DNA from: Candidatus Thalassarchaeaceae archaeon
GTDB lineage: Archaea > Thermoplasmatota > Poseidoniia > Poseidoniales > Thalassarchaeaceae
DNA: 41,019 nt
Reading direction: 5' to 3'
NCBI GenBank assembly: GCA_030747675.1
Contig: JASLKH010000099.1
Location: forward strand, 1 to 41,019
The translations under genes and the position numbers were made by a program. Of this stretch, positions 39,162 through 41,019 are shown one piece after another. The stretch's first letter is position 1, and each line of letters opens with the position of its first letter. The notes under the pieces are model-generated. The model was given only the letters and a program-made list of their open reading frames with translations, did not search any database and had not been told where the DNA came from.

Positions 39162-39332
39162 TTAAGCCGATTCACTGTGACCGCAACGACCACAGGTCTT
39201 GCGGTCAGAGTGGACACCAAGGAATACACCTGGGCCACATTTCGGGCAGAATTCCTGCTTTCGAACAAGTTTCCCATCTTCAATAGAATACTTCGACCAC
39301 TTTGCGGAAGAATTCGGACTGTCACCCATCAT
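39162..39332 (-). CDS. rps27ae: 30S ribosomal protein S27ae (eS31)
   Basis: Not in the ORF track (56 aa). Hand translation: [56 protein letters not shown]. It has the CPKCG...CGRC zinc finger, a GGAGGTG RBS and overlaps the rps24e stop. Confidence 0.95.
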
Positions 39333-39700
39333 TCTTCACCTCCAGCAATTTCTGCTTCTTCTGCAGCATCGGCAGTTGGTGTATCTTCTTCAGGAGAAGG
39401 ATCTGCTGTTGCAGCATTTGCTTCGACAGATACGGAATGGCGTTCAAGAATATATTTTGGCTCCTTTTCTAAGTCTTCGCGATTGTCATAAACAAAAGCA
39501 TTACCACTAGTTAAAGGCTGTCCGTATCGAGTGCTAACTGATTTTACGACAATCCTATCTTTGGTCGCACCAGGTTCGATTTTCGCTACAGCCTCTATGA
39601 TTTGTGCTCGAGTAGGTGTTGCATTTCCCACGTGTCTCCAAGTCCAAGACAATTCAACACGATTGAGAATTGGGTTTTCTTTGCGGTCAGTAATCTCCAT
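39329..39700 (-). CDS. rps24e: 30S ribosomal protein S24e with an acidic C-terminal tail
   Basis: [23 protein letters not shown] and [14 protein letters not shown] motifs; GGAGG RBS. Confidence 0.95.
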
Positions 39701-39712
39701 TTTTAGTCCTCC

Positions 39713-39922
39713 TTAGCGAATATTCACCTTCAATGCGTAATTTCCAGGAACTGTAATCCCCAAACGTTGTGCAACTTCGCTACGCTTTGGGTTTAGAATA
39801 ATTGTGAACCCCTGCCAGTCGATAGAAACTGGAGCGGTTGGGCATCGAGTACATTGAACTGGATCTTCGGCTCCATCGAGAATCATACGGCATTCTCCAC
39901 ATGCAAATGGTTTCTTTACCAT
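39713..39922 (-). CDS. spt4: Transcription elongation factor Spt4 (RpoE2)
   Basis: ACGECRMI...CTRC...WQGFTIILNPKRSEVAQRLGI...PGNYALKV. Start set at ATG 39922. Confidence 0.95.
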   Translation of the reverse strand: MVKKPFACGECRMILDGAEDPVQCTRCPTAPVSIDWQGFTIILNPKRSEVAQRLGITVPGNYALKVNIR

Positions 39923-39923
39923 C

Positions 39924-40475
39924 TTAATCGCGCTCCTCATCCAACCAATCGTGTGCTCCAAGTGACGGTTGCTTGCAAGTAAGCCCTATTTTGCTGGAAC
40001 GGGGATCGTGTGGGTTCAACGAAAGTGAGACGATTCGGGCACGTACTGGAGTTCCTTCGCCCAAACGCTTGCCTGATTGTTTACCCTCTATTTGGCGTTG
40101 GCCAATGTTAATGTCAATTTGCTCATCCAAAATTTGACTCTTGTGAAGAAGAGCCTCCATTGGACCAATTCGAACGAATGCTCCGAATTCATGAATTTCG
40201 CTAACTGCACCGTCAACAATTTCGTTACTTTCCATGTTGAATAGTAGCGCTTTGAAACTCACTTTCTGGTAAATTGCACCATCTCCATGAATAATTCGGC
40301 CGCGGCCTTGGAGCTCATGATCGAAGGTCAAAAGAATGTAATTTCCATCATCATCAAATCGACCCTCGAAGGCGTCATGCGCTAAACGGTCGACGTGTTC
40401 TGAAAGAGATTTTCCTTTTTTGATATATTCCGCTGGAATACGGATTGTGTCGTTTATTTGCTTGAGACTATACAT
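39924..40475 (-). CDS. rpoE1: DNA-directed RNA polymerase subunit E' (Rpo7)
   Basis: Motifs DTIRIP, GRIIHGDGAIY, FGAFVRIGPMEALLHKSQI and KIGLTCKQPSLG. Start set at ATG 40475; the track's longer N-terminus overlaps a structured RNA. Confidence 0.96.
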   Translation of the reverse strand: MYSLKQINDTIRIPAEYIKKGKSLSEHVDRLAHDAFEGRFDDDGNYILLTFDHELQGRGRIIHGDGAIYQKVSFKALLFNMESNEIVDGAVSEIHEFGAFVRIGPMEALLHKSQILDEQIDINIGQRQIEGKQSGKRLGEGTPVRARIVSLSLNPHDPRSSKIGLTCKQPSLGAHDWLDEERD

Positions 40476-40491
40476 CGCCTGCTTCCCCCTT

Positions 40492-40640
40492 AGATTCTCT
40501 CCAAAGAATGCGGCATCCAAGACGGAAGGCCCGCAAGCCCCCCGTCCCTCATCGGCTGCCGCCTCCAGAGGAGAGGTCGTCCAAGACGACTTGGCGACCG
40601 AAGACCCCTCTATGAACGCTTCGCCCAAGAGGAGATTCGG
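40492..40640 (-). ncRNA. Candidate structured 5' leader RNA with a kink-turn and alternative hairpins
   Basis: GC-rich. On the - strand, GCGGCA-GCC-GA.../...GA-TGCCGC fits the K-turn consensus. Stems close with G-U pairs on - but with A-C mismatches on +. AGAGGGG has two identical CTCCTCT partners. Confidence 0.55.
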
Positions 40641-40653
40641 AAAGTATCGTTCT

Positions 40654-40670
40654 GGGTCACTATGTGACCC
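40654..40670. promoter_or_regulatory. Perfect 7-3-7 inverted repeat GGGTCAC-TAT-GTGACCC next to a TATA-like element (40671-40676)
   Basis: Read directly in the rpoE1/PQQ-protein divergent region. Confidence 0.5.
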
Positions 40671-40716
40671 ATAAAGGTCCCTATCACACGAATGTTCAAG
40701 AGGTGTTCAGGAAGCA

Positions 40717-41019
40717 ATGATACTGATGGCGAGCGGAGCCCTTCTAGCGAAGCGATTACCATTGGCCATCCTGAGTATAATCATTCTTTTATTTGGACAA
40801 TCAATTTCACCCTTAATATTGAACGATTTAGGGGGCGATTCGGAGACTCAGTCTCGTGAAGAAACAGTCTGGATTGATGGTGGTCAAGCATGGCCACAAT
40901 TCGGCCAAAACCCAAACCGTCATTCGATAACCCCCCCAAATGCACCTTCTGATCAAGTGTCAACTGGCGAATATGTCAGCATCACCGACCCTGTTCTAAA
41001 TTGGAATCACTACCCAGAC
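40717..41019 (+). CDS. Secreted PQQ-like beta-propeller protein, N-terminal fragment; runs off the window edge
   Basis: Not in the ORF track. Hand translation: MILMASGALLAKRLPLAILSIIILLFG...AWPQFGQNPNRH...DPVLNWNHYPD, open to the window end. WPQFGxNPxR is a typical start of PQQ-repeat proteins. Confidence 0.6.
   Translation, partial: MILMASGALLAKRLPLAILSIIILLFGQSISPLILNDLGGDSETQSREETVWIDGGQAWPQFGQNPNRHSITPPNAPSDQVSTGEYVSITDPVLNWNHYPD

What the first reader, a model, noticed from the sequence alone, without database searches (positions are those of the whole stretch)
40492..40640. Kink-turn-containing, switch-like RNA leader before the rpoE1-spt4-rps24e-rps27ae operon
Seen on the - strand. 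(a) Domain 40562-40510 has the C-stem GCGGCA/UGCCGC, a 3-nt bulge GCC, tandem G.A/A.G pairs and then U.G, G.U and A-U pairs, which is the standard K-turn consensus. It is capped by a 10-bp stem GACGGGGGGC/GCCUUCCGUC. (b) AGAGGGG (40611-40605) can pair with CUCCUCU upstream (40634-40628; ~13-bp hairpin with inner UGGGCG/CGUUCA) or with an identical CUCCUCU downstream (40573-40567; closing the GGUCG-CCAAG/CUUGG-CGACC hairpin). These two pairings are mutually exclusive. (c) G-U pairs favour the mRNA-sense strand. (d) A TATA-like TTTAT at 40675-40671 would put the transcription start near 40645, giving a ~170-nt leader. Established: archaeal L7Ae binds K-turns and autoregulates through a leader K-turn, and ribosomal-protein operons are often leader-regulated. 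Inference: a leader I do not recognise may couple Rpo7/Spt4/eS24/eS31 synthesis to L7Ae or another ligand.
Basis: partly seen in the sequence, partly recalled or inferred. Interest (0 to 1): 0.85.

Follow-up and report, generated by a model that had tools for sequence, protein, structure and literature searches.

The report
Conserved kink-turn leader of rpoE1 operon
The GC-rich stretch in front of this archaeal RNA-polymerase/ribosomal-protein operon is a real mRNA leader, conserved across the order, whose invariant core folds into a kink-turn hairpin like those through which protein L7Ae shuts off translation.

Summary
The element is real and lies directly upstream of rpoE1 in 53 of 54 relatives' loci. 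It was found once per genome in 105 of 105 sampled genomes of two families of the order and in 0 of 43 of family f4, the other well-sampled family of the class.

- **Promoter.** The predicted start is about 40587, giving a leader of about 112 nt.
The motif at 40562-40510 fits the consensus only in this genome (1 of 53).

A different kink-turn hairpin at 40576-40538 is conserved. It runs CU tract, G.A/A.G, a 3-bp GGC/GCC helix with a loop, a GAU bulge, then a purine tract. All 13 invariant alignment columns are kink-turn-critical positions, and the flanking helix covaries (95% paired; 0 of 500 shuffles reach this). The layout matches known L7Ae-operated l7ae leaders.

This hairpin competes with a downstream helix. 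When it forms, a CU-rich strand is freed that can mask the ribosome-binding site.

The most likely reading is an L7Ae-type translational switch. It is undescribed in Rfam or the papers searched, but this scan flagged it earlier in two other genomes. No transcript or binding data were available.

The parts
40609..40624 (-). Promoter: BRE-like GCGAAGCG (40624-40617) plus TATA box TTCATAGA (40616-40609)
   Evidence: Aligned TATA variants (TTCATAGA, TTAAATAG, TTCATATA, TTATACAG) sit at fixed spacing in all families. The same module lies in front of an EtfB-like gene in G030 and in front of tRNA, uS12, aEF2, eS1 and eL20 genes in the window's own genome.
40593..40599 (-). GGTCGCC promoter-proximal element between the TATA box and the start site
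   Evidence: By my hand count, (G)GT[CG]GC[CG] lies about 10 nt after the TATA box in roughly 15 of 36 tRNA promoters and in several translation-gene promoters.
40585..40592 (-). Predicted transcription start, best guess G40587
   Evidence: In three genes read as leaderless and in tRNA-Met, the first base falls at positions 13-15 of the GGTCGCC element. This is an inference; there are no transcript data.
40579..40587 (-). 5'-terminal mini-hairpin GUC-UUG-GAC
   Evidence: Family f3 has GAC-UNCG-GUC at the same place, a U-A to A-U flip with a UNCG tetraloop.
40567..40576 (-). CU tract CCUCUCCUCU: n-strand of the K-turn NC helix (4n-13n)
   Evidence: Pairs with 40547-40538. Covariation on the plain MAFFT alignment A5. 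RNAalifold predicts the same helix.
40564..40566 (-). 3n (G40566), G2n (40565) and A1n (40564)
   Evidence: G2n and A1n are invariant in 51 of 51 distinct sequences. 3n is highly variable.
40554..40563 (-). C helix hairpin GGC-GGCA-GCC, with a C-G pair at -1b.-1n
   Evidence: The -1 and -2 pairs hold in 49-50 of 51. The -3 pair covaries C-G to U-A, and the loop is variable.
40549..40553 (-). Bulge L1-L3 GAU (40553-40551) plus G1b A2b (40550-40549)
   Evidence: L3 is U, 1b is G and 2b is A in 51 of 51. L1 and L2 vary. The l7ae leaders have the same GAU bulge (PMC6298567).
40538..40548 (-). Purine tract GGGACGGGGGG: 3b plus the b-strand of the NC helix; alternatively the 5' strand of helix P6
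   Evidence: 4b-6b GGA are invariant and the 7b.7n mismatch is conserved. Pairing partners are listed.
40521..40546 (-). Competing hairpin P6: GACGGGGGGC (40546-40537) with GCCUUCCGUC (40530-40521)
   Evidence: 99% paired within the genus. Own-versus-cross duplex test p about 2e-4. Mutually exclusive with the K-turn NC helix.
40510..40562 (-).
   Evidence: Passes the strict K-turn test only in the window, 1 of 53.
40515..40530 (-). CU-rich strand that can act as anti-SD when the K-turn hairpin forms
   Evidence: With the K-turn helices enforced, the predicted fold pairs it with 40495-40481.
40481..40495 (-). SD region (GGGGG at 40489-40485) and flanks
   Evidence: An SD-like GGAGG or GAGGUG lies 7-9 nt before the AUG in relatives. 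Masking is predicted.
39162..40475 (-). Operon: rpoE1 (40475-39924), spt4 (39922-39713), rps24e (39700-39329), rps27ae (39332-39162)
   Evidence: Pfam hits: S1 and SHS2_Rpb7-N, Spt4, Ribosomal_S24e, Ribosomal_S27. The Rpo7 start MYSLK is conserved.

Best explanation
This is the 5' leader, about 112 nt, of the rpoE1-spt4-rps24e-rps27ae mRNA.

Its invariant 5' half folds into a K-turn stem-loop. The non-bulged strand comes first (CU tract, G2n, A1n, GGC). A 3-4-nt loop follows. Then comes the bulged strand (GCC, G-R-U bulge, G1b, A2b, purine tract).

An L7Ae-family protein, most likely L7Ae itself, binds and locks this hairpin. The purine tract can otherwise pair with a CU-rich strand downstream (helix P6). 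Locking the K-turn hairpin therefore frees that strand to pair with the Shine-Dalgarno region and lower translation of rpoE1.

Shown by comparative analysis: the conservation, the K-turn sequence signature, covariation in the NC and C helices, and the existence of a competing helix. Inferred: the transcription start, L7Ae as the ligand, and the direction of regulation (OFF on binding).
For: Distribution:
- Directly upstream of rpoE1 in 53 of 54 loci.
- One strong hit per genome in 40 of 40 f1 and 65 of 65 f3 genomes, and 0 of 43 in family f4, the other well-sampled family of the class.
- A single copy in the window's own genome.

Structure:
- On a MAFFT alignment not fitted to any structure (A5), the NC and C helices are 95.4% paired against 43-64% when slid.
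- 0 of 500 shuffles reach the observed pairing, the observed count of cells changed on both sides, or the covariation score.
- Pair 22-54 is CG:28 and UA:16 with none unpaired.
- RNAalifold predicts the same helices and leaves a 3-nt/6-nt internal loop.
- Fourteen further, more divergent genomes keep the motif and add new compensating changes: 8b-8n A-U, 12b-12n U-A, and GGU/ACC in the C helix.

K-turn signature:
- In 51 distinct sequences, G1b, A2b, A1n, G2n, L3=U, 4b-6b, 5n and 6n are invariant.
- -1b.-1n is C-G in 49 of 51.
- 3b.3n, L1, L2 and the loop vary.

Comparison with known operators:
- Known l7ae leaders are stem-loops with a GAU bulge, tandem G.A/A.G and a short C helix. In half of them the terminal loop sits on the C helix (PMC6298567; PMC5539422).
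- L7Ae and L30e genes are present in this genome.

Switch:
- P6 is supported separately.
- With the K-turn helices enforced, the freed strand pairs with the SD in most lineages.
- SD accessibility falls from 0.24 to 0.15, and is lower in 42 of 53.
Against:
- No binding data.
- Nearest-neighbour energies favour the competing fold by about 15 kcal/mol. The model gives no credit for G.A pairs or bound protein, so kinetic or co-transcriptional locking would be needed.
- The predicted shift in SD accessibility is modest, and the SD is mostly paired in both states.
- Unlike l7ae leaders, the true SD is about 60 nt from the K-turn.
- The strongest double change (pair 22-54) is essentially one event at the f1/f3 split.
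- The motif anchors used pre-select part of the invariant sequence. They nevertheless matched 53 of 54 loci that had been chosen by Rpo7 homology alone.
Confidence: 0.55

Rival explanations
1. An autogenous ribosomal-protein or RNAP-subunit leader. A product of the operon (eS24, eS31, Rpo7 through its S1 domain, or Spt4) binds the conserved core, and the K-turn-like signature serves only as architecture.
For: It lies in front of r-protein genes, as r-leaders do (PMC7247131). Rpo7 has an S1 RNA-binding domain. The conserved C.C mismatch at 7b.7n and the long NC helix are not needed for L7Ae.
Against: No mimicry of 16S rRNA that tracks lineage variation. The h39-tip and h41-base resemblances seen in one genus fail in others. 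23S was not tested. None of these proteins is known to bind K-turns, and the invariant positions are exactly those L7Ae reads.
Confidence: 0.13
2. A 5'-end stability or processing element. The terminal hairpin and the K-turn ribonucleoprotein protect the mRNA from 5'-to-3' decay or guide its folding, with no on/off switch.
For: The hairpin is predicted to start at +1 in both families. The structure sits within the first 50 nt. The predicted change in SD accessibility is weak.
Against: It does not explain why the competing helix P6 and the anti-SD complementarity are kept across lineages.
Confidence: 0.12
3. An upstream open reading frame or decoy initiation site. GAGG, 7-9 nt, then AUG/GUG form a real ribosome-binding site, and its use, possibly blocked by L7Ae, controls rpoE1 translation.
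For: GAGG followed by 7-9 nt and RUG is present in 53 of 53. Only A or G occurs at codon position 1. In L030, L042, L043 and L044 the frame runs into rpoE1. In l7ae leaders the SD lies in the K-turn C helix.
Against: The uORF is 4-123 codons long, with variable frames and stops. The peptide is not conserved beyond M[RK]DG. Third codon positions are invariant, so the constraint is on the RNA and not on coding. RUGA and GAGG are what a box-C-like K-turn requires anyway.
Confidence: 0.08
4. One reading: a 170-nt leader from a TATA at 40675, a K-turn at 40562-40510, and AGAGGGG toggling between two CUCCUCU copies.
For: All of these elements are present in the window. A weak TATA-like box followed by a conserved CCCAGAAC exists within the genus.
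Against: The K-turn holds in 1 of 53. The upstream CUCCUCU is not conserved. AGAGGGG is part of a promoter module that also drives tRNA and other genes.
Confidence: 0.04
5. DNA-level conservation: an operator or an initially transcribed region that acts on RNA polymerase, not an RNA structure.
For: The conserved block begins at the promoter. CCUC-N-GAGG is an inverted repeat. The operon encodes RNAP-associated factors.
Against: U.G pairs are specific to the sense strand, and the covariance-model score is strongly asymmetric between strands. Compensating changes occur across a 30-nt span.
Confidence: 0.05

Closest known systems
L7Ae-responsive K-turn stem-loops in archaeal 5' UTRs (l7ae and nop5 mRNAs; Daume et al. 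2017, PMC5539422; Huang, Ashraf and Lilley 2019, PMC6298567)
   Same: [quoted passage not shown]
   Different: It controls a different operon (Rpo7, Spt4, eS24, eS31). The NC helix is long, about 9 bp, with a conserved mismatch. The functional SD lies about 60 nt downstream. The protein-free state is predicted to be a stable alternative fold, not unstructured RNA. Binding and regulation are untested.
Box C'/D' K-loop of archaeal C/D box sRNAs
   Same: The order D'-like box (YNGA), short spacer, C'-like box (RUGANGG). L2 is a purine and L3 is U.
   Different: No terminal C/D boxes, no guide regions, and it is part of an mRNA. There is no Rfam C/D hit at the element.
Ribosomal-protein leaders (r-leaders), including the four archaeal candidates of Eckert and Weinberg 2020 (PMC7247131)
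   Same: A conserved, covarying structure upstream of r-protein genes, presumably protein-operated.
   Different: None of the published archaeal motifs (L4, eL15, two for S15) concerns this operon or lineage. No rRNA mimicry was found here. The likely ligand is not encoded in the operon.
Bacterial attenuator or riboswitch expression platforms (1:2/3:4 versus 2:3 pairing)
   Same: One purine strand can pair with either of two pyrimidine strands, and the loser can mask the SD.
   Different: An archaeal, protein-sensed (inferred) K-turn takes the place of a small-molecule aptamer or leader-peptide translation.

Membership tests
Kink-turn (K-turn) RNA motif | Tandem trans sugar-Hoogsteen G.A (1b.1n) and A.G (2b.2n) pairs | tested here: met
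   At sequence level only. G1b, A2b, A1n and G2n are invariant in 51 of 51 distinct sequences. Window positions: 40550, 40549, 40564, 40565.
Kink-turn (K-turn) RNA motif | A 3-nt bulge 5' of G1b on one strand, with no bulge on the other | tested here: met
   A G/A/U-R-U bulge sits between the C helix and G1b in all sequences. RNAalifold leaves a 6-nt/3-nt internal loop.
Kink-turn (K-turn) RNA motif | A Watson-Crick C helix abutting the bulge, with -1b.-1n usually C-G | tested here: met
   C-G in 49 of 51 and U.G in 2. The -2 pair holds in 50 of 51. The -3 pair covaries C-G to U-A.
Kink-turn (K-turn) RNA motif | An NC helix continuing after a variable 3b.3n | tested here: met
   Ten different 3b.3n combinations. 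4b-6b pairs are invariant or wobble. 8b-12b covary.
Kink-turn (K-turn) RNA motif | A kinked three-dimensional geometry | not testable with these tools
   Needs FRET, crystallography or probing.
L7Ae-operated translational operators in 5' UTRs | Located in the transcribed 5' UTR | tested here: inconclusive
   The start is predicted at about 40587 from promoter architecture. Sense-strand U.G pairs argue that it is RNA. There are no transcript data.
L7Ae-operated translational operators in 5' UTRs | The K-turn stem-loop overlaps or abuts the gene's ribosome-binding site | tested here: not met
   The rpoE1 SD (40489-40485) is about 60 nt downstream. Only an SD-like GGAGG lies in the K-turn. Masking would have to be indirect.
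L7Ae-operated translational operators in 5' UTRs | Specific L7Ae binding and L7Ae-dependent repression | not testable with these tools
   The L7Ae gene is present in the genome. There is no binding assay.
Any Rfam 15 family (including H/ACA, C/D, SRP, RNase P, r-leaders) | A covariance-model match | tested here: not met
   No hit better than E about 1 in E-value mode over 40300-40900.
Ribosomal-protein leader with rRNA mimicry | Resemblance to the ligand's rRNA site that tracks lineage variation | tested here: not met
   16S h39-tip and h41-base similarities in genus g15 do not follow the 16S changes in five other genera. 23S was not tested.

The most novel reading that the evidence does not exclude
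A bistable leader, conserved across the Poseidoniales, in which free L7Ae locks a 5' K-turn hairpin co-transcriptionally and so flips a 1:2/3:4-type pairing switch. That would tie synthesis of the RNA-polymerase stalk subunit Rpo7, elongation factor Spt4 and two small-subunit proteins to the cell's pool of unassembled L7Ae. This would be an archaeal global feedback linking ribosome assembly to the transcription machinery. The operon also shares a GC-rich GGTCGCC promoter element with tRNA genes.
Probability: 0.3. Interest if true: 0.8.

Novelty: new member of a known kind. Interest (0 to 1): 0.6.

Why it matters
Very few cis-regulatory RNAs are known in archaea, and L7Ae-operated K-turn leaders have been shown only for l7ae and nop5. 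This would extend that mechanism to an operon encoding RNA-polymerase and elongation-factor subunits plus ribosomal proteins, in one of the most abundant archaeal groups of the surface ocean. It offers a compact test system of about 110 nt with two competing conserved folds. It also gives a predicted promoter and start-site architecture for an uncultured lineage.

Tried and rejected
- **Rfam.** cmscan in E-value mode gave nothing.
- **rRNA mimicry.** A 13-of-14-nt match to the 16S h39 tip and an AAGGACGG..AAUGGG match at the h41 base in G038 do not track 16S variation in other genera, so I rejected mimicry.
- **Upstream ORF.** The frame, length and stop are not conserved, and third codon positions are invariant, so I rejected it as a coding feature.
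- **SD masking in the unconstrained ensemble.** Accessibility is 0.23 native against 0.31 shuffled, lower in 37 of 53. This is weak.
- **Lower stem P5 and long-range P1.** Own-versus-cross duplex tests gave p about 0.09 and not significant. I do not claim these helices as conserved. P0, pairing the 5' end with the SD flank, gave p about 0.011 and is only suggestive.
- **Genus-built covariance model R1.** It forced the genus's pairing scheme onto family f3 and picked up antisense hits, so I did not use its alignment A3 for counting.
- **Strict K-turn tests.** With the UGA GA against the hairpin's 3' strand, the only matches are distant and likely spurious.
- **Extra copies.** Searching the window's own genome for further copies of the core found none.
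- **Own l7ae leader.** Reading it by eye for the same K-turn gave no convincing drawing.

Full report
**Setting.** The finding lies in a 250-bp intergenic region (40476-40725). On the minus strand, rpoE1 (Rpo7) starts at 40475. It is followed by spt4, rps24e and rps27ae, all confirmed by Pfam. The Rpo7 start, MYSLK, is conserved in all relatives. On the plus strand a divergent gene starts at 40726. The region is GC-rich, 0.59-0.65 against 0.40-0.50 around it. It folds better than shuffles, z = -3.7. It matches no Rfam family.

**Conservation.**
- blastn found the element directly upstream of rpoE1 in 21 of 23 congeners and in nine other genera of the family.
- Fetching rpoE1 loci from the remaining families showed the same core in 53 of 54 loci.
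- A sequence-only model of the 5' half (A5, R2) found one strong hit per genome in 40 of 40 f1 and 65 of 65 f3 genomes.
- It found none in 43 genomes of family f4, the other well-sampled family of the class.
- The motif is single-copy in the window's own genome.

**Promoter.**
- The aligned sequences show a BRE/TATA (window 40624-40609) at a fixed distance from the conserved core. The TATA variants are typical of archaea.
- The same module, TATA then about 10 nt then GGT[CG]GC[CG], occurs in G030 about 45 nt before an EtfB-like gene.
- In the window's own genome, by my hand count, it occurs before roughly 15 of 36 tRNA genes. It also occurs before genes that I read from their N-termini as uS12, aEF2, eS1 and eL20.
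- Three genes read as leaderless, and tRNA-Met, place the first transcribed or mature base at positions 13-15 of that element. This predicts the rpoE1 start at about G40587 and a leader of about 112 nt.
- The RNA would then begin with a small hairpin: GUC-UUG-GAC here and GAC-UNCG-GUC in family f3.
- No transcript data could be obtained, so the start site remains an inference.

It is present in the window and passes a strict consensus test. It passes in only 1 of 53 leaders. Most congeners have UUGGCU instead of UUGGAU on the 3' strand. Family f3 and several others lack the 5' GA (GGUGA, AAUGA, AGUGA, UGUGA).

**The conserved K-turn.**
That prompted a scan for any K-turn arrangement. It found one candidate in 47 of 53 leaders against about 7 expected in shuffles.
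- *Layout.* The non-bulged strand comes first: CU tract, 3n, G2n A1n, GGC. A 3-4-nt loop follows. Then comes the bulged strand: GCC, the G-R-U bulge, G1b A2b, 3b and the purine tract. In the window this spans 40576-40538.
- *Covariation.* On the plain MAFFT alignment A5 these helices are 95.4% paired against 43-64% when slid. No shuffle in 500 reaches the observed pairing or covariation. Pair types include CG:28/UA:16, UG/CG/UA and CG/UG/UA.
- *Independent prediction.* RNAalifold predicts the same helices and leaves a 3-nt/6-nt internal loop.
- *Divergent members.* Fourteen further genomes keep the motif and add new compensating changes.
- *Invariant positions.* In 51 distinct sequences the invariant positions are exactly the K-turn-critical ones: 1b, 2b, 1n, 2n, L3, the -1 and -2 pairs, 4b-6b, and 5n-6n. 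Meanwhile 3b.3n, L1, L2 and the loop vary.
- *Candidate ligands.* The genome encodes L7Ae and L30e.

**Competing fold.**
- The purine tract (40548-40538) also pairs with a downstream CU-rich strand, forming P6 (40546-40537 with 40530-40521).
- P6 is 99% paired within the genus. It is supported by an own-versus-cross duplex test, p about 2e-4.
- The two folds exclude each other.
- With the K-turn helices enforced, the freed strand (40530-40515) pairs with the SD region (40495-40481) in the window. The analogous pairing forms in most lineages.
- SD accessibility falls from 0.24 to 0.15 and is lower in 42 of 53.
- The nearest-neighbour model favours the P6 fold by about 15 kcal/mol. A protein, and probably co-transcriptional folding, would be needed to hold the K-turn fold.
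- Other helices (P5, P1) and SD masking in the unconstrained ensemble are not statistically supported.

**Alternatives.**
- The conserved GAGG-N7-9-RUG looks like a ribosome-binding site for an upstream ORF. That ORF varies from 4 to 123 codons, with changing frames, and its third positions are invariant. The K-turn reading explains the same bases and more.
- Mimicry of 16S rRNA was tested and rejected.
- A role for an operon-encoded protein, a pure stability role, or a DNA-level role cannot be excluded.

**Novelty.** There is no Rfam family. There is no such leader among the published archaeal r-leaders, and no paper links this lineage with K-turns. This scan had already met the element in two other genomes, with opposite verdicts on the K-turn. 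The present analysis reconciles them.

Noticed in passing
window 40593-40599; own genome C8, C10, C11, C43, C54, C56, C72 and others: A GC-rich element, (G)GT[CG]GC[CG], sits about 10 nt after the TATA box and about 13 nt before the start. By my hand count it is shared by roughly 15 of 36 tRNA promoters. It also precedes genes I read from their N-termini as uS12, aEF2, eS1 and eL20, and the rpoE1 operon. It may be a class-specific promoter element for the translation apparatus, loosely like a bacterial discriminator.
   Followed up: partly
window 40695-40728 (+ strand): The divergent gene, a protein beginning MASG with no Pfam family, has a TATA-like TTCAAGAG at 40695-40702, 31 nt before its ATG at 40726. 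It is probably leaderless. This explains the conserved UUGAACGUUCG block that the minus strand shows.
   Followed up: partly
window 40654-40670: The palindrome GGGTCAC-ATA-GTGACCC follows an (U)AUUCAUGG/UUUAUGG box. Its arms covary between species (GTTAC/GTAAC, GGCCC/GGGCC, GACAC/GTGTC, CAGACC/GGTCTG in other genera), and CCCAGAAC follows it. It could be a second promoter with an operator, or an RNA hairpin. Unexplained.
   Followed up: no
L055 (G030:C26) about 990-1045: A near-copy (85%) of the rpoE1 promoter module, without the leader, sits in front of an EtfB-like gene with a TTG start and its own SD. The promoter appears to have been reused.
   Followed up: partly
window 40544 and 40570 (7b.7n): A C.C mismatch (C.U or C.A in a few) is conserved in the middle of the K-turn NC helix in all 51 distinct sequences. 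It may be a recognition feature, or it may keep the helix weak.
   Followed up: no
L030, L042, L043, L044: In four lineages the RUG embedded in the K-turn is in frame with rpoE1 with no stop. An N-terminally extended Rpo7 could be made there.
   Followed up: no
L048 (G037, family f2): This is the only rpoE1 locus without the motif anchor. Its Rpo7 match starts at residue 8, and the upstream region shows only a degenerate GAGGC...GCCGAAGGAC with an inserted palindrome.
   Followed up: no
own genome C54:4450-4592: The l7ae gene has a TATA (GTTTATAC) and a short leader..ACAUGAGGAGUGAAUCCA-AUG, with two GA steps flanking the SD. This may be a K-loop, but I could not draw a convincing K-turn.
   Followed up: partly
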